A stretch of 64,000 bases of DNA from Candidatus Nomurabacteria bacterium. Its GTDB lineage: Bacteria; Patescibacteriota; WWE3; UBA101185; UBA10185. The stretch covers positions 234,615 through 298,614 of the forward strand of contig JACKGU010000002.1 in NCBI GenBank assembly GCA_020631855.1, written 5' to 3'. Positions 9,927 through 54,841 of this stretch are shown piece after piece (position 1 is the first letter of the stretch; every line of letters starts with the position of its first letter). The position numbers and the translations under genes are program-made. The notes under the pieces are model-generated. The model saw only the letters and a list, made by a program, of their open reading frames with translations. It ran no database searches and was not told where the DNA came from.

Positions 9927-12788
9927 CTAAGCCAAATTTTGAACCCTATATTCAGTAGAAAATTCAATTTCTTCAGCCCCGACTTTATCTTTAATGTAAT
10001 CACCAAACATCTTTAGTATCTCGGCATTGTCAGCCTCGTCCATTAAAAATACTTTAACCCTGTCCGAGACGTCTAGATTTTCTTCTTTTCGCATATCTTG
10101 TATTTTTCTTATTAAGTCGCGCGCCGCTCCTTCAAGCTCTAGCTCGCGAGTAAGTGTTGTATCAAGATAAACTTTGTACTCTTTTGACTCAGAAAAAGGC
10201 ATTGCAGATATTTGAGAAGGTATTTCCGAACCGACATGTACAACCTTAACATTAACCTCATCCTCTATTAAATCCGAAAATAAGTTCAAAGATTCACTTG
10301 TAACATAAAGTCCTGCTAAAGGCTGCCTTATCTTTATTGCTTCCGAAACTCTTACAGAAAGCGCCAGCGAAACAACCTCACGCGTATTAGCCATTCTCTG
10401 AAGTATCTCAATCTCGGATTGCTCCAGCTCTTTGTAAGAAGGGAAAAAATCAAAATGCACGGAACCGAATTCTGTATAGTCGGGTAAATTAAGGGTCTGG
10501 TAAATCTCCTCTGCCATGAAAGGCACAAAGGGTGCAATTAGCTTACTTAAGGAGCTCAAAACAAAAAATAATACATGTAGGGATTCAGCATCTCCTGAAT
10601 TTATGCGGTCTCTAGAACGTCTTACATACCAGGTAGATAAATCATTGACGAGGGGGGCAAGCTGCCGTGCCGCCTCCATAACTGTATAGTCATCCATTTT
10701 CTCCACAACAACATTGATCGTCTCCTGCAATCTTGCCAACACCCATTTATCCAAAACATTATCGCTTTTCGGAACATTTAAATCAGGTTCGAATTCGGCC
10801 TTATTCGCATATGTTACAAAATATTTTACGCAATTCCACAACGGTAAAAAAAACTCTTTGCGGGCGTCGATCAAAACCTGCTCATAAAATCTTGGACTTT
10901 CTCCCTGCACAATAGGCGAATTCAATAAAAAGTATCGTAAAACATCTCCGCCGTACTTGTCTAATACTGTATCAAGCGGCTGATAATTTTTTTTGCTTTT
11001 GCTTAACTTCTTACCCTTTTCGTCAAGCAACATACCTGAAACTACAACATTTTTGTAAGGAACCTTATCAAATAGTGCAACACCGAGAACGTGCATTGTG
11101 TAGAACCAGAGCCTTACCTGATCATCACTCTCCGAAATATACTCGGCAGGGAAGGTCTCTTTAAAACGATCTTGATTCTCAAATGGGTAGTGCAGTTTGG
11201 CAAAAGGCACAGCTCCTGAATCAAACCAAACATCGACAACATCAGGTACTCTTCTAAAAGTGCCTCCACTAGACTTATCGTCCCAAGTCACTTCGTCCAC
11301 ATAAGGCTTGTGAGGATCTTCGAGTTTAACACCGGAAAGCTCTTCTAACTCTTGGAATGAGCCAATAACATGTATATCTCCTGTCTTGTCGTTAATCCAA
11401 ACCGGCAAGGGTGTACCCCAATACCTACTTCTGCTCAGCGCCCAGTCACGGACATTTTCCAACCAAATCTTCGAAGCACCGTTTTTTGTATGTTCAGGCT
11501 TCCAGTTCACTTTTTGGTTTTCCTCAAGCATTCTTTCTTTTAGTTTTGTGGTTGCTAAGTACCAGCTTCTTATTGGCTTATAAATCAAAGGGGTTCCGGT
11601 TCTCCAGCATATCGGCATTCTGTGTAGAATAGTTGAGGAATCAAACAGCAGGCCTTTTTTCTCTAAAGATTCCAGAATTATCGGATTTGCGTCTTTATAA
11701 AATTTGCCTTTAAGCTCTGGGATTTCATCAGTAAACCGCGCGCTCTCGTCCAGGTAATCAAAAAGTTGTATTCCTAAAGCCATAAAAACATCAAAATCCT
11801 CAGCGCCGTAGGGGGCAAGATGAACAATGCCCGTGCCGTCCTCATCGCTTGCATGATCAGCAATAACGATTCTAAAACAACCCTCAGCTCTTTTACTCAA
11901 GTAGTAATCAAACAAAGGCTCGTACTCACGGCCTTCAAGATCAGAACTTGAAAGTTTTTCTAATACTTTATATGAATTATTCTTAAAAACGTCTTCTAAT
12001 CTAGCCTCAGCAACATAATATGTTTCACCTTCATACTGCACTTTTGCATAAACAACCTTTTTCCCTACCGCCAGCATTAAATTAGAAGGCAGGGTCCACG
12101 GGGTTGTAGTCCATGCCAATACAAAAGCGTCTTCATCTATAAGTTTGAACTTTAATGTGACTGAAGGATCTTCAAGCTCTTTGTAGCCACCATCTTGAAC
12201 TTCATGAGTTGATAAGCTCGTGCCAGCACGTGTTGAATAAGCAACAACCTTATATCCTTGATAAAGAAAGCCTTTGTTGTAAAGTTCTTTTAGAGCCCAC
12301 CACATGCTTTCGATATAGCTTGCGTCCATTGTGTAATACATGTCGGATTCATCAAACCAACGTCCCAAACGACTTTCATAAGCAAACATGGCGTCACGGT
12401 GCTTTAGAACAGATTGTCTGCACATCTCGTTAAATTTAGCGACACCAAACTCTTCAATATCGTCTTTGTGTTCAAAGCCCATCTCTTTTTCTATTTCAAA
12501 CTCAACCGGAATTCCTTGGCAATCCCAACCAATATTTCTTGAAACTAGGTAATTTTTCATAGACCAATATCTTGGAATAACGTCTTTCATGGTCCAGGTT
12601 ATAGCATGACCATAGTGAGGCATGCCGTTTGCAGTTATAGGCCCGTCATAATAAACTTTTTCGACTGAATCTTTTCTCAACTCCTTCAAACTCTCTACAG
12701 CTTTTAGAGATTTCCATAACTCTAGCTTTTGCTTCTCAAGATCGGGAAAATCAGGACTTGTAGTCAAATCTTTAAATTTTTTCTTCAT
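9927..12788 (-). CDS. ileS: Isoleucine--tRNA ligase, class I, archaeal/eukaryotic-like long form
   Basis: 953 aa with the HIGH-type motif PHYGHAI, the editing-domain motif WTTTPWTLPSN and the KMSKS-type motif KLSKSKKNY. The length and motif set fit IleRS better than ValRS or LeuRS. Confidence 0.75.
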   Translation of the reverse strand: MKKKFKDLTTSPDFPDLEKQKLELWKSLKAVESLKELRKDSVEKVYYDGPITANGMPHYGHAITWTMKDVIPRYWSMKNYLVSRNIGWDCQGIPVEFEIEKEMGFEHKDDIEEFGVAKFNEMCRQSVLKHRDAMFAYESRLGRWFDESDMYYTMDASYIESMWWALKELYNKGFLYQGYKVVAYSTRAGTSLSTHEVQDGGYKELEDPSVTLKFKLIDEDAFVLAWTTTPWTLPSNLMLAVGKKVVYAKVQYEGETYYVAEARLEDVFKNNSYKVLEKLSSSDLEGREYEPLFDYYLSKRAEGCFRIVIADHASDEDGTGIVHLAPYGAEDFDVFMALGIQLFDYLDESARFTDEIPELKGKFYKDANPIILESLEKKGLLFDSSTILHRMPICWRTGTPLIYKPIRSWYLATTKLKERMLEENQKVNWKPEHTKNGASKIWLENVRDWALSRSRYWGTPLPVWINDKTGDIHVIGSFQELEELSGVKLEDPHKPYVDEVTWDDKSSGGTFRRVPDVVDVWFDSGAVPFAKLHYPFENQDRFKETFPAEYISESDDQVRLWFYTMHVLGVALFDKVPYKNVVVSGMLLDEKGKKLSKSKKNYQPLDTVLDKYGGDVLRYFLLNSPIVQGESPRFYEQVLIDARKEFFLPLWNCVKYFVTYANKAEFEPDLNVPKSDNVLDKWVLARLQETINVVVEKMDDYTVMEAARQLAPLVNDLSTWYVRRSRDRINSGDAESLHVLFFVLSSLSKLIAPFVPFMAEEIYQTLNLPDYTEFGSVHFDFFPSYKELEQSEIEILQRMANTREVVSLALSVRVSEAIKIRQPLAGLYVTSESLNLFSDLIEDEVNVKVVHVGSEIPSQISAMPFSESKEYKVYLDTTLTRELELEGAARDLIRKIQDMRKEENLDVSDRVKVFLMDEADNAEILKMFGDYIKDKVGAEEIEFSTEYRVQNLA

Positions 12789-12798
12789 AAAAACCCCC

Positions 12799-12831
12799 TA
12801 AAAAAGAAAAACCCTTTACTAATAAAGGGTT
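12799..12831 (-). terminator. Intrinsic terminator hairpin plus U-tract immediately upstream of the ileS RBS (attenuator terminator)
   Basis: The minus-strand RNA reads AACCCUUUA-uuag-UAAAGGGUU (9-bp perfect stem), then UUUCUUUUUU, then AGGGGG-uuuuu-AUG (ileS start). Being in the 5' UTR, it blocks ileS unless read through. Confidence 0.55.
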
Positions 12832-12863
12832 AAAGCGAGCCAAACCGAAATACGGCCCGCGAT

Positions 12864-12902
12864 CTAAATAATAATTATTGTTTTTGAAACTTTTGTATTC
12901 AT
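12864..12902 (-). CDS. Candidate ileS leader peptide MNTKVSKTIIII, with four consecutive Ile codons before the stop
   Basis: ATG AAT ACA AAA GTT TCA AAA ACA ATA ATT ATT ATT TAG lies 12 nt downstream of a sigma70-like promoter and directly upstream of a hairpin (GCGGGCC...GGCUCGC) and the terminator. Confidence 0.4.
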   Translation of the reverse strand: MNTKVSKTIIII

Positions 12903-12914
12903 AACCTACACTTG

Positions 12915-12943
12915 ACTATACAAAAAATATTTCTTTAATGCAA
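12915..12943 (-). promoter_or_regulatory. Sigma70-like promoter for the ileS leader: TTGCAT-N17-TATAGT on the minus strand
   Basis: The reverse complement of 12915-12943 is TTGCATtaaagaaatattttttgTATAGT, with -35 at 12938-12943 and -10 at 12915-12920. Confidence 0.45.
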
Positions 12944-13101
12944 ATAAACATTTTTTTCTCTAGGTAAAGCTTGTGACTCTAAAGTGCTAGCGGATACGCA
13001 ATAATTATATTTACTGCAGTAAGGCAGCCAACCTAGTTCACGTATGAAAACTTATGTACGTAGAAGTAAAGAAAGGTCTTCTGCTCTGGGTCCGCAACAC
13101 T

Positions 13102-13749
13102 TCATTTTACTTTTTCATTAAACTTTTTGGGCAACCAAATAGTATCTTCAATCTGCTGAACGTGGTTTGCATACCTTGCTAAAACAAACAATAAATCAGA
13201 CAATCTATTAAAATAAATTAGCATGTCTCTGGAAACATCATCTATAACAAAGTCTTTCTGAGAAACAAAAGATACAAAACTCCGCTCAAGTCTCCTGCAC
13301 ACTGCTCTGGAAATATGTAAATTTTTGGCTTGTATACTGCCGCCAGGTAAAATAAAGTTTTTTAATTCCGGTAAATCTGAGGACAGCTCGTCAATCAAAC
13401 GTTCCGACTTCAAAACCATCGCGCGAACATCTGGCCCTAATGAAGAGGTTCTTGTCCATTTGACTGATTTGGCTAAAGCTGTACCTGCTCTTTTTTTTGA
13501 TTCTGAAACATCACCATCGCCTGAAGATTCATAAGAAGCTATCACAGCACCGAGGCTAAAAAGATCTTCCTGCAGTCCTAGGATTGTTCTTGATATTTTT
13601 GATTTATTATCAACAACAGCTAAAGCCAAAGCAGCATTAAGCTCGTCCATAGTGCCTAATACTTCAAAAACATATTCTTTTTTCGAAAGAATTCCGCCGT
13701 TTATGATTGAGGATTTGCCGGAGTCGCCTTTTTTTGTGTAAATTTTCAT
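13102..13749 (-). CDS. PduO-type ATP:cob(I)alamin adenosyltransferase
   Basis: The N-terminus MKIYTKKGDSGKSSI matches the PduO/MMAB signature (IYTRTGDKGETSL). Its size (215 aa) fits, and the neighbouring gene encodes a B12-dependent RNR. Confidence 0.7.
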   Translation of the reverse strand: MKIYTKKGDSGKSSIINGGILSKKEYVFEVLGTMDELNAALALAVVDNKSKISRTILGLQEDLFSLGAVIASYESSGDGDVSESKKRAGTALAKSVKWTRTSSLGPDVRAMVLKSERLIDELSSDLPELKNFILPGGSIQAKNLHISRAVCRRLERSFVSFVSQKDFVIDDVSRDMLIYFNRLSDLLFVLARYANHVQQIEDTIWLPKKFNEKVK

Positions 13750-13798
13750 AATTTATTCTGCTATAAAAATAGGGGTGCTACAAGGCCTATTTATTGAA

Positions 13799-13828
13799 GG
13801 AGGCAGGGAGATTTTCTCCCTGCCTCCT
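13799..13828. terminator. Perfect 13-bp palindromic hairpin between nrdJ and pduO; likely the nrdJ terminator
   Basis: GGAGGCAGGGAGA-tttt-TCTCCCTGCCTCC lies 40 nt downstream of the nrdJ stop codon. The flanks are A/T-rich on both sides. Confidence 0.45.
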
Positions 13829-13868
13829 TCTTAATAACAAACAATCAAGCCCGGACATAAGCGCCTAA

Positions 13869-16373
13869 TTAACAGACACTATAGCCACAATCATGACACT
13901 TTAAACAACCCTCTTCTCTTATAAGCGAAGAGTTGCCGCAATCCGGACACATATCTAAGTGGGCATTAACACTTATATTATTTGAGTTTTCTTCAATTAT
14001 ATTCGAACCATTCGCCTTTACTTTTATCTTTAAATCGTCTGCCAATACTTTAGCTATAGCATCAGGAATGGAACTTACCCTGCTCTTACCAAAACCTACA
14101 GAACGCGCGCCGCCGATGCCTATTAGTTGCGATACTATTTCTTTTGCTGTCGTCAAAGGATTATAACTTGTTCTCAACCAGCCCGATAAAGACCTTCCAA
14201 GAGCCTCAGAGAGAGCCGATACGTCGCTACCCGCTTTACCTACTCCTACAAAAACCTCGAAAGGATCGCCGTTCGCATCTCTGTTTACAGTAATAAAAGC
14301 CTTTCCCTGGGGAGTTTGAACTTTGTAAGTATTTCCGTTCAACACATACCCTCTATCCATTATCGGCTCGGGATTAACGTTTTTAACTTCCTCGGGACCG
14401 GTATAAGAGCCGGCCTCTTTAGAGTCTTTTACTGCCTTAGTTTCCAAAACTACTTCTGTCCTACTTCCGGTGACATAAACCGTTAATCCTTTACACTTCA
14501 TCTCCCAACCTAGCATATAAGCTTTAGAGACATCTTCCAGGGTCGCGCCCTCAGGGAAATTACATGTTTTAGATATTGAGTTATCTATGAAAGCCTGTAT
14601 TGCGGCCTGAGTCATTATATGCTCTTCGGCAGTAATATCAGAGGAAACAACAAAAACATCACGAATCTCTCTAGGAAGATCTTCTATGTCAGTACAGGAA
14701 CCGGTGTTTGCAACTGAAGAAATAATATTCTGACGCGTTTCCGGAGAAAGATCTAACATATCAAGGGCCTTCTCAAACATTGGACTAACATAGGTGAGGG
14801 TTAGCTTTTCAGAATCTCCTGCAGCCTGATAAACGTTTCTTAAATAAGCCAGAGCAAAAACAGGCTCACAGCCGTAACCCTCAATTCCTGCAACAGTTGA
14901 GATTGTACCGGTTGGGGCAACAGTTGTTTGAGCAGCATTTCTAATACCGTGAGTCCTGATACCCTCCACCACGTATGCCCAATCCAGCGCCGGCCTACCA
15001 AAATCTTTTGAGTAGGGGGTCAGCGGTTTGGGGGGCTGCCATGTTAGATTTTCAGGGTCGTAAATACTACCTTTAATCTTTAAGAAAGGGCCTCTTTCCT
15101 TTGCCAACGCTATTGAAATCTTCATAGAGTGATATCTAATAAATTCAGTTATCTGCGCTGCCAGCTCTTGCCCCTCGAGACTTCCGTACCTTACTCCCAT
15201 TGCATACATCACGTCCGCCAAACCCATAAAACCTAGCCCAATTCTCCTGGCATTTAAGGCCGCCTCTCTGAGCTGAGGAATAGACGGCACATAAGTATTT
15301 TCAGATACTACGTTATCTAAAAATCTTGTTGCTAACTCTACACTTTCCTCTAAGAACTCCCAATTAAGCGTGCCATCTTCGTTAAGATGCGCCTCAAGGT
15401 TGAGCGACCCCAAACAACAGTTCTCATAAGGTCCAAGCCACTGCTCGCCGCAAGGATTTGTTGCCTCCAGATCATAAAGATGGGGCACGGGGTTGGTTCT
15501 ATTTGCCTCGTCGATAAATAACACTCCGGGCTCACCATTTTTGTGTGCGTGTTTAACTATTAAATCAAATATTTCACGAGCCATTGGTGTCTCGGTAACC
15601 TCTTTAGTATTAGGATCTATTAATTCGTAAGCTGTATCGTTTCTAACCGCCTCCATGAATCTGTCGGTAATAGCCACGGAGATGTTGAAATTCGCCATTT
15701 TACCTTCCTGGGCTTTACACATAATAAATTCCCTTATATCCGGATGATCAACCTTTAATACACCCATGTTAGCACCCCGACGAGCTCCTCCCTGAGCTAC
15801 CTCACCGAACGCACCATCATACACGGACATGAACCCAACCGGGCCGCTAGCCTTGCCGTTACTAGATTTTACAATACTGCCCTTTGGTCTAAGCTTTGAA
15901 AATGAAAAGCCGTTTCCACCTCCAGACTGCTGAATTAGTGCCGCAGTTCTTAGCGTAGAAAAAATGCTATCTTCACCAATCCCAAGATCGTCAGAGACCG
16001 GCAAAACGAAACAAGCGGCCAACTGGCCAAGCGGGGTTCCGGCACCGGTAAAAGTAGGGGAATTTGGAAAGAAACGCTTTGTCGCCAAAAGGTTATAGTA
16101 TTCAACCGTAGATTTCTGTACATCTCGGTAAGGAGCATCGGGCTTTGCAACTGTGGAAGCAACGCGTTCAAATAGTTGCTGTATATTTTCGGCATAAGTT
16201 CCGTCGGGATTTTTTCTTAAATACCTTCTCTCCAGTATATTTTGGGAGTTTGGGCTGAGTTCTATGTCTTCCTTTTTTTGCAGACCGTAATCTTTAATAA
16301 AAGTTGTATTAACTTTCAATGAACTGAGTATACTAGGTTTAAAAGCGTTAGAGGCAACATTAATCCACTTCAT
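13869..16373 (-). CDS. nrdJ: Class II (adenosylcobalamin-dependent) ribonucleotide reductase
   Basis: 834 aa. The active-site region is [21 protein letters not shown], and the C-terminal Cys cluster (CPDCGNSS...[12 protein letters not shown]) is typical of NrdJ. Confidence 0.85.
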
Positions 16374-53176: not shown

Positions 53177-54523
53177 TTACCCGAGCTCGTCGATTCTTAA
53201 GCGTCTTTGTGAAGCTGTATCGCGATCTCTGATAGTCACAGTTTCATCCTCTAAGGTCTGAAAATCGACTGTAATGCAATAGGGAGTCCCTATTTCGTCT
53301 TGGCTATAGTACCTTTTTCCAATATTTCCTCGATCATCCCAAGCCACATTATAGCCTTTGGTAACTAGAGTGTTGTATATTAGCCGAGCTTTATCCACAA
53401 GCTCGGGTTTATTCTTTAAAAGCGGGAAAACAGCATACCTATAGGGTGCTATATCTGGGTGCAGTTTCAGAACTACTCGTTCTTCTTCCTCAACATAAGC
53501 ATCAAACAACAACACCAACATAAGTCTATTAAGCCCTATGGAGTACTCAACGACATGGGGAACATATTTCTCCCCTGTTACAGGGTCGGTGTAATCTAGA
53601 TTAGTTCCCGAAAATTCCGCATGGCGACTTAAGTCCCAGTCGCTTCTGTAGTGAAGGCCTTGAAATTCTTTCCAACCAAAAGGAAATCTATACTCAACGT
53701 CTGTAGCTATCTTATTGTAATGAGCCCGCTCCTTAAAGTCTTGGTCGCGCAGCCTGAGCTTATCTTCAGGAATTCCCAAACTTACTAACCAGTCTATAGC
53801 CCAAGATTTCAATTTCGCCATTTGATTTTCGGCATCTGAAGGATGCACATACAGTTCCATTTCCATTTGTTCAAATTCCCGCGTTCTAAAAAAGAAAGGG
53901 CCGACCTTTATCTCATTTCTAAACGCCTTGCCTATTTGAGCTATTCCAAAAGGTATTTTCATTCTCATGGAATCTCGAACTAAAGCGTAGTTATAAAAAA
54001 TGGGCTGACATGTTTCTCCTCTTAAATAAGCGGTTGCTTTAGCGTCTTCTAGTGTACCTATTGAGACCTCAACTAAACTATTGAATTTTCTTGCTTTTGA
54101 AAGCTTATTTCCATCGGGGCTTAAAATGTTATTTTCAGCAATTAAAATATCCAGCTCCTCAAGACTCATGCCGTCAGCATTAAACTCCTCTCCGTTTTTT
54201 TTCTCAAAGTATTCCCCAATAATGTGGTCGGCTCGATATCTTTTATTGTTTTTTATATCTTCAACCATTGCATCGGCAAAGGATTCAACGTGCCCGCTAG
54301 CCTCCCATACCCTCGGGTGAGATATAATTGCACTATCTAGCCCCACTATGTTTGGTTGTTTATGCACAAACTCTTTCCACCATAAATTTCTGATGTTTCT
54401 TAGCATTTCAGCTCCTAGAGGACCAAAGTCGTAAGCGGCTTCCCACCCACCATAGATTTCTGAGGATTGAAAAACAAAACCTCTTCGTTTGCATAAACTT
54501 GTTATTTTTTGAACCGCGTCCAT
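53177..54523 (-). CDS. glyQS: Glycine--tRNA ligase, homodimeric (archaeal/eukaryote-like) type
   Basis: The N-terminus RRGFVFQSSEIYGGWEAAYDFGPLG, the class II motifs (FRNE...) and the anticodon-binding C-domain identify a dimeric GlyRS. 448 aa. Confidence 0.85.
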   Translation of the reverse strand: MDAVQKITSLCKRRGFVFQSSEIYGGWEAAYDFGPLGAEMLRNIRNLWWKEFVHKQPNIVGLDSAIISHPRVWEASGHVESFADAMVEDIKNNKRYRADHIIGEYFEKKNGEEFNADGMSLEELDILIAENNILSPDGNKLSKARKFNSLVEVSIGTLEDAKATAYLRGETCQPIFYNYALVRDSMRMKIPFGIAQIGKAFRNEIKVGPFFFRTREFEQMEMELYVHPSDAENQMAKLKSWAIDWLVSLGIPEDKLRLRDQDFKERAHYNKIATDVEYRFPFGWKEFQGLHYRSDWDLSRHAEFSGTNLDYTDPVTGEKYVPHVVEYSIGLNRLMLVLLFDAYVEEEERVVLKLHPDIAPYRYAVFPLLKNKPELVDKARLIYNTLVTKGYNVAWDDRGNIGKRYYSQDEIGTPYCITVDFQTLEDETVTIRDRDTASQRRLRIDELG

Positions 54524-54678
54524 GGAACTATCCTACCATAACCATAAGCAGTATTAAATCCCATTTTAAATACAATCAGCAGCGGGTTTTACCCATCTCA
54601 AAAGGTGTTTGAGTACTTTGTTGATTTTTTGAGACCCGGACCCATAAGATAAGAGTAAAAAACGTGCTTTTACAAAAT

Positions 54679-54800
54679 AATCAACTGCCGCTAGCTCACT
54701 CAGGCGGGTTACTGTAGTCTCATTACGCTTCAAAGCCAACATTTCGGGCAAAGTACATCTTCTAGCCTATGCAAGTGGTTTTGAATAACTAAACTATAAA
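54679..54800 (+). repeat. Copy R7: diverged 3' module
   Basis: aatcaactgccgctagctcactcaggcgggttactgtagtctcattacgcttcaaagccaacatttcgggcaaagtacatcttctagcctatgcaagtggttttgaataactaaactataaa. It lies in the divergent region between glyQS and the small gene paired with the Y-family polymerase. Confidence 0.5.
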
Positions 54801-54805
54801 AGCAC

Positions 54806-54834
54806 TTGACATAATAGCCCCCTTCGGGTTATAT
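54806..54834 (+). promoter_or_regulatory. Promoter TTGACA-N17-TTATAT, with the ATG 7 nt after the -10 (leaderless)
   Basis: cacTTGACAtaatagcccccttcgggTTATATtcggtatATG: -35 at 54806-54811, -10 at 54829-54834, ATG at 54842. Confidence 0.45.
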
Positions 54835-54841
54835 TCGGTAT

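What the first reader, a model, noticed from the sequence alone, without database searches (positions are those of the whole stretch)
12789..12945. Candidate ribosome-mediated attenuator upstream of ileS, with an Ile-rich leader peptide
The 313-bp region upstream of ileS, read on the minus strand, contains four elements in order. First, a good promoter, TTGCAT-N17-TATAGT. Second, 12 nt later, a 12-codon ORF: ATG AAT ACA AAA GTT TCA AAA ACA ATA ATT ATT ATT TAG, i.e. MNTKVSKTIIII with four consecutive Ile codons before the stop. Third, a hairpin, GCGGGCCguauuucgguuuGGCUCGC. Fourth, a perfect 9-bp terminator hairpin, AACCCUUUA-uuag-UAAAGGGUU, followed by UUUCUUUUUU, with the ileS SD (AGGGGG) and ATG immediately downstream. 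A terminator sitting between a promoter and the RBS, preceded by a short ORF full of the cognate amino-acid codons, is the textbook layout of attenuation (trp, his, ilv, pheST). I am not aware of ileS being controlled this way; Firmicutes use T-box leaders, and I found no T-box sequence here.
Basis: partly seen in the sequence, partly recalled or inferred. Interest (0 to 1): 0.65.

Follow-up and report, generated by a model that had tools for sequence, protein, structure and literature searches.

The report
Isoleucine leader-peptide attenuator before ileS
Upstream of the isoleucyl-tRNA synthetase gene of an uncultured WWE3 (Patescibacteria) bacterium lies a 12-codon reading frame ending in four isoleucine codons, then a transcription terminator; four related lineages have the same layout, so it is probably an isoleucine-sensing on/off switch of a textbook kind, not previously described for this gene or this group of bacteria.

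Summary
The window comes from a candidate-division WWE3 (Patescibacteria) MAG.

**Support.**
- ileS has a Shine-Dalgarno sequence but no promoter of its own, so it must be transcribed through the terminator.
- Among about 19 WWE3-type ileS lineages sampled, exactly five, including this one, carry the same module. It has a -10 box, an 11-13 codon ORF with ATA-ATT/ATC-ATT (III or IIII) zero or one codon before a stop, a G/C-rich segment 1-4 nt after the stop, and a terminator 20-26 nt before ileS.
- ORF and terminator co-occur, except that one lineage keeps the terminator alone.
- The non-Ile codons and the stop codon identity differ between lineages. The terminator stem shows compensatory changes.
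- No Rfam family matches, including T-box.

**Weak point.** In this window the post-stop hairpin does not overlap the terminator. No antiterminator pairing is predicted for any ribosome position. Two relatives (L034, L040) do show a ribosome-gated antiterminator.

**Verdict.** This is a likely Ile-sensing leader-peptide attenuator, a new member of a known kind. The switching step in this genome is unresolved, and there are no expression data.

The parts
12915..12943 (-). Promoter P2 of the leader: -35 TTGCAT (12943-12938), 17-nt spacer, -10 TATAGT (12920-12915)
   Evidence: Sequence. The consensus scan reports 9/12 in the adjacent register TTTGCA-18-TATAGT. Equivalent -10 boxes lie 6-13 nt before the leader ATG in L036 (TTGCCT-17-TATAGT), L034 (TTAACA-16-TATTAT) and L020 (TGATATAAT).
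12864..12902 (-). Leader ORF: ATG AAT ACA AAA GTT TCA AAA ACA ATA ATT ATT ATT TAG (MNTKVSKTIIII*). The predicted 5' UTR is only about 5 nt, so the mRNA is near-leaderless.
   Evidence: Counterparts in relatives are MIINFLNIIIM* (L034), MLTYVNHSVIIIC* (L036), MAIITSTKVIIIK* (L040) and MLIASYNSRIII* (L020).
12867..12878 (-). Run of four Ile codons (ATA ATT ATT ATT), the proposed sensor
   Evidence: ATAATYATT is the most conserved block in the five-leader alignment. Its only variable base is a synonymous third position.
12835..12860 (-). Hairpin 1: GCGGGCCG / UGGCUCGC, 8 bp with a 10-nt loop. Its 5' arm starts 4 nt after the stop codon, so a terminating ribosome covers it and a ribosome stalled early in the Ile run does not.
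   Evidence: A homologous GCGGGG...CCUCGC hairpin occurs in L036 and L020, and an equivalent one in L040.
12800..12831 (-). Intrinsic terminator: AACCCUUUA-UUAG-UAAAGGGUU, followed by UUUCUUUUUU
   Evidence: Stem covariation across six lineages: 98% of cells paired, 5 of 9 pairs with compensatory changes, 0 of 500 shuffles as good.
12786..12799 (-). ileS ribosome-binding site AGGGGG (12799-12794) and start codon ATG (12788-12786)
   Evidence: There is no TANNNT box 5-10 nt before the ATG, unlike most genes of the window.
9927..12788 (-). ileS, isoleucine--tRNA ligase, 953 aa: the regulated gene. It is followed on the same strand at short distances by a LytR_C-domain gene, an RNHCP-domain gene, rplU and rpmA.
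13004..13031 (-). Second promoter-like site P1, TTGGCT-16-TATAAT, about 90 nt upstream of P2. It is not known whether it belongs to the element.
   Evidence: 10/12.

Best explanation
This is a ribosome-mediated (leader-peptide) transcription attenuator that couples ileS transcription to the supply of charged tRNA-Ile.

**Proposed sequence of events.**
1. Transcription starts at P2, a few nucleotides before the leader ATG. The 12-codon ORF is therefore translated as a leaderless or near-leaderless mRNA, which is the usual mRNA type in this genome.
2. When Ile-tRNA is plentiful, the ribosome runs to the UAG. From there it covers the G/C-rich segment that begins 4 nt downstream.
3. The terminator 12831-12800 forms and most transcripts end about 12802, before ileS.
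4. When Ile-tRNA is scarce, the ribosome stalls with one of the four Ile codons in its A site. The G/C-rich segment stays exposed, more polymerases read through the terminator, and ileS is made.

**Shown.** The anatomy and its co-conservation in five lineages. The absence of an ileS promoter downstream of the terminator. The geometry: the G/C-rich segment starts +9 to +13 nt from the last Ile codon in all five leaders.

**Inferred.** Translation of the ORF, stalling, and the direction of the response.

**Unresolved.** How the exposed segment defeats the terminator in this window.
- In L034 and L040 the segment pairs with the terminator's 5' arm, which is a classical antiterminator.
- Here it folds into hairpin 1, which does not touch the terminator.
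- Hairpin 1 may therefore act as the pause or synchronising hairpin, or through a route not captured by secondary-structure competition.
For: 1. **Anatomy.** All parts are confirmed.
2. **ileS needs read-through.**
   - The U-tract ends at 12800 and the SD starts at 12799.
   - No promoter-like site lies between them.
   - ileS is one of the few SD-type genes. Twenty-two of 38 ATG genes in the window have a -10 box 5-10 nt before the ATG instead.
3. **Comparative evidence.**
   - An Ile-run ORF and a terminator 20-26 nt before ileS co-occur in exactly five lineages (WIN, L034, L036, L040, L020).
   - The distance from leader stop to ileS ATG is 68-75 nt in all five.
   - No lineage has the ORF without the terminator.
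   - These IleRS proteins are only about 57-62% identical to the window's by BLASTP. The non-Ile codons do not align.
4. **Signs of translation.**
   - The ORFs are 11-13 codons long.
   - The stop comes zero or one codon after the run, but its identity varies (TAG, TAA, TGA).
   - The only change inside ATAATYATT is synonymous.
5. **Terminator.** The stem shows compensatory changes.
6. **Chance.** 11 of 20000 shuffles of the spacer and 2 of 782 short ORFs meet the ORF criterion.
7. **Ribosome gating in relatives.** Probability that the terminator's 5' GC core is free before the 3' arm is made, with the matching pairings seen:

| Leader | Ribosome stalled in Ile run | Ribosome at stop |
|---|---|---|
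| L034 | 0.01 | 0.96 |
| L040 | 0.06 | 0.83 |

8. **Precedent.**
   - Leader-peptide attenuators are established for pheST.
   - They are predicted for leuS and trpS2 in Streptomyces (PMC1262725).
   - Switches between T-box and leader peptide for the same gene are documented (PMC2965389).
   - A weak T-box-like leader precedes ileS in the related locus L022.
Against: 1. **No antiterminator in this window.**
   - The terminator is in the MFE structure for every modelled ribosome position.
   - Hairpin 1 and the terminator share no bases.
   - The best upstream partner of the terminator's 5' arm is only GGG:CCC.
   - The pre-terminator ensemble gives no effect in the expected direction for WIN, L036 or L020.
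2. **Most relatives lack the module.** About 13 sampled WWE3-type lineages have a leaderless ileS instead. The module is therefore dispensable and patchy.
3. **Possible ileS promoters in two relatives.** L040 has TTGTTA-16-TGCAATAAT. L020 and its sister L021 have TGTTAGGCT 9 nt before the ATG. Both overlap the U-tract, and L021 keeps the terminator without any leader ORF.
4. **The Ile run resembles a -10 box.**
   - It is AT-rich, low-complexity sequence. It contains TATAAT in L040 and is part of TTAACT-17-AATAAT in L036.
   - The same 9-mer is part of the P1 -10 region at 13000-13008.
   - It also reads IIII on the opposite strand.
5. **Leader ORF initiation is uncertain.** There is no Shine-Dalgarno sequence. 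The -10 to ATG distance is 12 nt, longer than the 6-9 nt typical of leaderless genes here.
6. **ATA is not rare.** It makes up 39% of Ile codons in window genes.
7. **No transcript, ribosome-profiling or genetic data exist.**
Confidence: 0.6

Rival explanations
1. The short ORF is not a sensor. The AT-rich ATAATTATT block is a promoter element (-10 box) or neutral low-complexity DNA. The two hairpins form a structured 5' UTR or a leaky insulating terminator that ends transcription from the upstream nrd / Cob_adeno_trans genes. ileS is made by constitutive partial read-through.
For: - The Ile run contains -10-like hexamers: TATTAT here, TATAAT in L040, and TTAACT-17-AATAAT (9/12 with TG) in L036.
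- The same 9-mer sits in the P1 -10 region.
- L021/L024 keep the terminator before ileS without any leader ORF.
- The terminator forms in every modelled state.
- No terminator for the upstream gene is seen elsewhere in the spacer.
Against: - No promoter is detected at the Ile run in this window.
- This reading does not explain an in-frame ATG 8-10 codons upstream next to a separate -10 box in five lineages.
- It does not explain a stop codon of varying identity zero or one codon after the run, or the synonymous-only change in the run.
- It does not explain the strict co-occurrence with ileS.
- Chance estimates for the ORF are 5e-4 to 3e-3 per lineage.
Confidence: 0.17
2. It is an independent small gene, encoding a 12-aa hydrophobic peptide or a roughly 105-nt small RNA, with its own promoter and terminator. 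It happens to sit upstream of ileS, and any read-through into ileS is incidental.
For: - A complete promoter-ORF-terminator unit is present.
- Relatives carry a different small ORF, a 35-58 aa single-pass membrane protein, in the same slot.
- L040 and L020 may have a separate ileS promoter.
Against: - Only the Ile run is conserved in the peptides, so there is no conserved peptide sequence.
- The window's ileS has no promoter of its own.
- The association is specifically with the gene that charges tRNA-Ile.
Confidence: 0.1
3. It is a ligand-, tRNA- or protein-binding RNA switch. Candidates are a degenerate T-box or an IleRS autoregulatory operator formed by hairpin 1, in which case the ORF is irrelevant.
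For: - A related lineage (L022) has a T-box-like ileS leader.
- The GCGGGG...CCUCGC arms of hairpin 1 are conserved in sequence in WIN, L036 and L020.
Against: - No T-box or other Rfam match is found even at E = 10.
- The hairpin-1 loops are unrelated in sequence and length.
- L034 lacks hairpin 1 altogether.
- The leader is only about 105 nt, too short for Stem I plus an antiterminator.
Confidence: 0.05

Closest known systems
E. coli pheST attenuator (pheM leader peptide). Basis: own knowledge, plus its mention in PMC1262725.
   Same: A short leader ORF rich in codons for the cognate amino acid, followed by an intrinsic terminator, sits upstream of an aminoacyl-tRNA synthetase operon. Expression is induced when the cognate charged tRNA is scarce.
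   Different: - pheM has a Shine-Dalgarno sequence and clearly overlapping 1:2, 2:3 and 3:4 pairings.
- Here the ORF is (near-)leaderless.
- Here the Ile run abuts the stop codon.
- Here no antiterminator overlaps the terminator in this window.
- The amino acid, gene and phylum all differ.
Predicted classical attenuators upstream of leuS and trpS2 in Streptomyces (Seliverstov et al. 2005, PMC1262725)
   Same: These are computationally predicted leader-peptide attenuators of synthetase genes outside Proteobacteria, found by comparative genomics.
   Different: Those have identifiable antiterminator and terminator hairpins. The same paper finds ileS in Actinobacteria under a translational T-box, not a leader peptide.
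ilv leaders of enterobacteria (ilvGMEDA ivbL/ilvL type). Basis: own knowledge.
   Same: Ile codons in a leader peptide are used to sense Ile-tRNA charging.
   Different: - They control biosynthetic operons.
- They sense several amino acids together (Ile, Val, Leu).
- Their peptides are longer, about 32 aa.
- No Rfam leader family matches here.
T-box leaders of ileS (Firmicutes; translational form in Actinobacteria)
   Same: They regulate the same gene and respond to the same physiological signal, uncharged versus charged tRNA-Ile. A weak T-box-like leader occurs in the related locus L022.
   Different: A T-box binds tRNA directly and needs no translation. There is no T-box sequence or Stem I here.
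His leader peptide upstream of hisS paralogue / hisZ in Bacillus (Naville and Gautheret 2010, PMC2965389)
   Same: It is an example of a leader peptide replacing a T-box for a synthetase-family gene within one group of organisms, a 'switch between sensing systems'.
   Different: The amino acid and phylum differ, and it also rests on prediction only.

Membership tests
Ribosome-mediated (leader-peptide) transcription attenuator | A promoter upstream of the leader, and no promoter between the terminator and the regulated gene | tested here: met
   - P2 lies at 12943-12915.
- The U-tract ends at 12800 and the SD starts at 12799, with no promoter-like site or TANNNT box between them.
- This rests on consensus scans only.
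Ribosome-mediated (leader-peptide) transcription attenuator | A short ORF that can be translated soon after it is transcribed | tested here: inconclusive
   - The ATG lies 12 nt after the -10 box, giving a 5' UTR of about 5 nt and no SD.
- Leaderless initiation is plausible because 22 of 38 genes here look leaderless.
- Translation itself is not shown.
Ribosome-mediated (leader-peptide) transcription attenuator | Tandem codons for the amino acid cognate to the regulated gene | tested here: met
   There are four consecutive Ile codons before the stop. An III run is conserved in four other lineages.
Ribosome-mediated (leader-peptide) transcription attenuator | An intrinsic terminator between the leader ORF and the gene | tested here: met
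   A 9-bp stem plus U-tract is present, with covariation across six lineages.
Ribosome-mediated (leader-peptide) transcription attenuator | An antiterminator structure that excludes the terminator and whose formation depends on where the ribosome sits | tested here: not met
   - In the window, the terminator is kept in all states.
- Hairpin 1 does not overlap it.
- The best alternative pairing is GGG:CCC.
- The ensemble shows no effect in the expected direction.
- The feature is met in relatives L034 and L040.
Ribosome-mediated (leader-peptide) transcription attenuator | Read-through increases when the cognate charged tRNA is limiting | not testable with these tools
   This needs Term-seq or RNA-seq, or a reporter under Ile starvation or mupirocin.
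T-box riboswitch (RF00230) | Stem I with a specifier loop, the conserved T-box sequence, and an antiterminator bulge | tested here: not met
   No T-box hit is found at E up to 10 in 12000-14000 or at the gathering threshold in the whole window. For comparison, L022 gives 29.8 bits.
Curated Rfam amino-acid leader families (Thr, Leu, His, Trp, Phe leaders and the like) | A match to the family covariance model | tested here: not met
   No match overlaps the element. The only leader-family hit at E up to 10, Trp_leader_2 (22.4 bits against a gathering score of 100, E = 4.2), lies inside the ileS coding region at 12634-12728. The gathering-threshold scan found only two tRNAs.

The most novel reading that the evidence does not exclude
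The attenuator works, but not by the textbook competition of hairpins. In this window and in L036, the ribosome-gated element (hairpin 1, with conserved GCGGGG...CCUCGC arms) sits 3 nt upstream of the terminator without sharing bases with it. It would have to change termination by another route. Possibilities are acting on the polymerase, as phage put-type RNAs do, or serving as a helper or pause element for a weak terminator. All of this would run on a leaderless leader mRNA. If true, it would be the first evidence of transcription-translation coupling used for regulation in Patescibacteria, and a variant attenuation mechanism.
Probability: 0.15. Interest if true: 0.75.

Novelty: new member of a known kind. 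Interest (0 to 1): 0.5.

Why it matters
- **New case for ileS.** Leader-peptide attenuation is a classic mechanism. In the held literature searched here I found no case for ileS and none for the Candidate Phyla Radiation. There, ileS is described only with T-box control (PMC1262725).
- **What it would imply if real.**
  - These ultra-small, uncultured bacteria would couple translation to transcription closely enough to regulate by it.
  - They would monitor tRNA-Ile charging even though they are thought to depend on others for amino acids.
  - A leader peptide would be able to work from a leaderless mRNA.
- **Regulatory turnover.** One clade shows three solutions for the same gene: a leader peptide, a T-box-like leader, and no leader. 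That makes it a compact example of regulatory turnover.
- **Practical use.** The element is small (about 145 nt), so it is easy to test in a reporter or in vitro.

Tried and rejected
- **Rfam.** A search at E up to 10 around the site and at the gathering threshold over the whole window and nine relatives gave nothing relevant.
- **Antiterminator search in the window.** All of the following found none beyond GGG:CCC and a weak GGUU:AACC (-2.1 kcal/mol):
  - ribosome-masked MFE folding;
  - folding before the terminator's 3' arm exists;
  - best duplex of every upstream segment with either terminator arm;
  - ensemble probabilities;
  - folding from the upstream promoter P1.
- **Other mechanisms considered and dropped.**
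  - Hungry-codon frameshifting or stop read-through that would carry the ribosome over the terminator: the +1 and -1 frames end at different places in the five leaders, so there is no consistent pattern (by inspection).
  - Sequestration of the ileS SD by the 3' arm of hairpin 1: complementarity is too weak.
  - Hairpin 1 as a tRNA anticodon mimic for IleRS: the loops are not conserved.
- **Similar leader before the other synthetase gene in the window.** glyS (53177-54523) has none and looks leaderless.
- **Leader ORF as a remnant of the small membrane-protein ORF that relatives carry in the same slot.** tblastn found no similarity.
- **Pattern scan of viral contigs for ATAATTATT-N(3-10)-GCGGGG.** It returned 120 or more unrelated hits, none followed by a class I synthetase motif.

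Full report
**Source and setting.**
- The window is part of contig JACKGV010000006.1 of MAG GCA_020631795.1.
- The best genomic relatives of its IleRS are candidate division WWE3 / Patescibacteria MAGs, at 52-62% identity. This is therefore a CPR bacterium with no close sequenced relatives.
- ileS runs from 9927 to 12788 on the minus strand (953 aa; TIGR00392, 815.9 bits against a cut-off of 621.4).
- Upstream on the same strand are a Cob_adeno_trans gene (13102-13749) and a ribonucleotide reductase gene.
- The 313-nt spacer before ileS is one of the longest in a genome whose gaps are mostly under 120 nt.

**The observation.**
  - P2: TTGCAT-17-TATAGT (12943-12915);
  - the ORF, 12902-12864: MNTKVSKTIIII*;
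  - hairpin 1: 12860-12835;
  - the terminator: 12831-12810 plus U-tract to 12800;
  - SD AGGGGG and the ileS ATG at 12788.
- The consensus scan reports the promoter in the adjacent register TTTGCA-18-TATAGT (9/12). It also finds the terminator and a second, better promoter-like site, P1, at 13031-13004.
- The leader RNA folds into the two hairpins with z = -2.75. None of 200 shuffles folds as well.
- A short ORF ending in at least three Ile arises in 11 of 20000 dinucleotide shuffles of the spacer. It arises in 2 of 782 short ORFs of the window.
- No Rfam family, including T-box and the curated amino-acid leaders, overlaps the element even at E = 10.

**ileS needs read-through.**
- Most genes in the window look leaderless. 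Twenty-two of 38 ATG genes have a TANNNT box ending 5-10 nt before the start codon, and only 7 have an SD-like sequence.
- ileS belongs to the minority. It has an SD, no -10 box, and its SD begins one base after the U-tract.
- Unless an unrecognisable promoter is hidden there, every ileS transcript must pass the terminator.

**Comparative evidence.**
- I fetched the ileS upstream region from about 19 WWE3-type lineages.
- A systematic screen finds the combination of an Ile-run ORF and a terminator 20-26 nt before ileS in exactly five lineages.

| Lineage | Leader peptide |
|---|---|
| Window | MNTKVSKTIIII* |
| L034 | MIINFLNIIIM* |
| L036 | MLTYVNHSVIIIC* |
| L040 | MAIITSTKVIIIK* |
| L020 | MLIASYNSRIII* |

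- The distance from leader stop to ileS ATG is 68-75 nt in all five.
- No lineage has the ORF without the terminator.
- One lineage (L021/L024, sister of L020) has the terminator alone.
- These IleRS proteins are only about 57-62% identical to the window's by BLASTP. They do not form one clade in a rough tree.
- Outside the Ile run the ORFs do not align.

Features that argue for translation rather than a mere AT-rich motif:
- The ORF length is 11-13 codons.
- The run ATA-ATT/ATC-ATT is in frame in all five.
- The single substitution within the run is synonymous.
- A stop follows zero or one codon later, and all three stop codons are used.
- Each ATG lies 6-13 nt after a -10-like box.

The terminator stem is 98% paired across six lineages, and five of nine pairs show compensatory changes.

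**Other relatives.**
- Thirteen lineages have no leader, and their ileS looks leaderless. Six of these carry a 35-58 aa membrane-protein ORF in the same slot.
- L022 has a weak T-box-like leader with GGUGGUACCG (29.8 bits, E = 8e-5, below Rfam's gathering score).

**Mechanism: what fits.**
- In all five leaders a G/C-rich segment starts +9 to +13 nt from the first base of the last Ile codon, which is 1-4 nt after the stop.
- From the established size of the ribosome footprint (about 12-15 nt downstream of the P site), a ribosome with the stop codon in its A site covers this segment. A ribosome held at the early Ile codons does not.
- In every leader, this segment is also the best upstream partner for the terminator's 5' arm.
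- In L034 the pairing is GGCCCU with GGGGCU. In L040 it is GGGGUC with GACCCC.
- Before the 3' arm is made, the probability that the terminator's GC core is free changes as follows. This is the classical logic.

| Leader | Ribosome stalled in Ile run | Ribosome at stop |
|---|---|---|
| L034 | 0.01 | 0.96 |
| L040 | 0.06 | 0.83 |

- L034 has a G-rich terminator arm and a C-rich gated segment. The other four have the reverse. This is a swap that preserves complementarity.

**Mechanism: what does not fit.**
- In the window and in L036 the gated segment pairs with a partner immediately downstream to form hairpin 1 (-13.4 and about -9 kcal/mol). Hairpin 1 ends 3 nt before the terminator.
- The terminator is present in the MFE structure for all ribosome positions.
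- Complementarity to the terminator arm is only GGG:CCC.
- The ensemble calculation gives no change for L036. It gives a weak change in the wrong direction for the window and for L020.
- Folding from P1 changes nothing.
- The antiterminator step is therefore not demonstrated here.
- Hairpin 1 could be the pause hairpin that lets the ribosome catch up, as the 1:2 hairpin does in trp. That alone does not explain induction.
- The GCGGGG...CCUCGC arms are conserved in sequence in three lineages, with one compensatory pair. This hints at a role beyond simple folding.

**Rivals.**
- **Ile run as a promoter element.** The run resembles a -10 box: TATAAT in L040, and a 9/12 promoter-like site in L036. 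The same 9-mer is part of P1. In L040 and in L020/L021 a promoter-like site overlaps the U-tract, so ileS there may not depend wholly on read-through. This keeps alive the reading that the module is a leaky terminator plus AT-rich DNA.
  - That reading does not explain the in-frame start and stop pattern or the tie to ileS.
- **Independent small gene.** This is unlikely because only the Ile run is conserved.
- **T-box-like or protein-binding switch.** This lacks support.

**Comparison with known systems.**
- Leader-peptide attenuation of synthetase genes is established for pheST.
- It has been predicted for leuS and trpS2 in Streptomyces. The same study found ileS under a translational T-box (PMC1262725).
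- Exchange of T-box and leader-peptide control for one gene has been described (PMC2965389).
- Three literature searches found no report of an Ile leader peptide for ileS or of attenuation in Patescibacteria. The library is incomplete, so this is absence of evidence only.

**Verdict.**
- One defining feature, the antiterminator, was tested and not met in this sequence.
- Nothing here rests on expression data.
- Confidence is 0.6 and interest is 0.5.

Noticed in passing
L022 2220-2389: A related WWE3-type ileS is preceded by a weak T-box-like leader (RF00230, 29.8 bits, E = 8e-5, below the gathering score of 93). It has the hallmark GGUGGUACCG and a terminator. Within one clade, ileS therefore has a T-box-like leader, a leader peptide, or no leader at all.
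   Followed up: partly
window 13796-13831: A perfect 15-bp palindromic hairpin, GAAGGAGGCAGGGAG-AAAAU-CUCCCUGCCUCCUUC (minus-strand reading), lies in the gap between the ribonucleotide reductase and Cob_adeno_trans genes. It has no U-tract and gave only spurious miRNA hits in Rfam. L020 also has long perfect hairpins after its reductase gene.
   Followed up: no
whole window: Most genes look leaderless. Twenty-two of 38 ATG-start genes have a TANNNT box ending 5-10 nt before the start codon, often with an upstream TG. Only 7 have an SD-like sequence. The ileS genes of relatives without the leader follow the same pattern.
   Followed up: partly
window 13004-13031 and 12916-12951 (minus strand): A second, stronger promoter-like site, TTGGCT-16-TATAAT, lies about 90 nt upstream of P2. 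A tiny ORF, MFICIKEIFFV*, overlaps P2. Whether transcripts start here is unknown.
   Followed up: no
L002, L038, L039, L041, L042, L045, just upstream of ileS: Relatives without the leader carry a 35-58 aa ORF between Cob_adeno_trans and ileS, in the slot where the window has the leader. It has a basic N-terminus, one hydrophobic stretch, and an RA..(A/T/V)D motif followed by YF or LY. tblastn finds no similarity to the window's spacer.
   Followed up: partly
L021 / L024, about 40 nt upstream of ileS: The sister lineage of L020 keeps the homologous terminator (CCCTTCC-TTAT-GGAGGGG-T6) directly after the reductase stop codon, with no leader ORF. A TGTTAGGCT extended -10-like box lies 9 nt before the ileS ATG. 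This suggests loss or gain of the leader around a pre-existing terminator.
   Followed up: partly
window 12777-12809 (minus strand): The terminator U-tract, UUUUUCUU, is complementary to ileS codons 2-4 (AAGAAAAA). Pairing between them would loop out the SD and start codon in read-through mRNA. L034 and L036 have similar A-runs. This may only reflect Lys-rich N-termini.
   Followed up: no
window 53177-54841: The gene at 53177-54523 is glyS (glycine--tRNA ligase, NF003211, 572 bits). It has a 318-nt upstream gap, shared with a divergent gene, but no leader ORF or terminator. Its start looks leaderless: TGGTAGGAT, then 6 nt, then ATG.
   Followed up: yes
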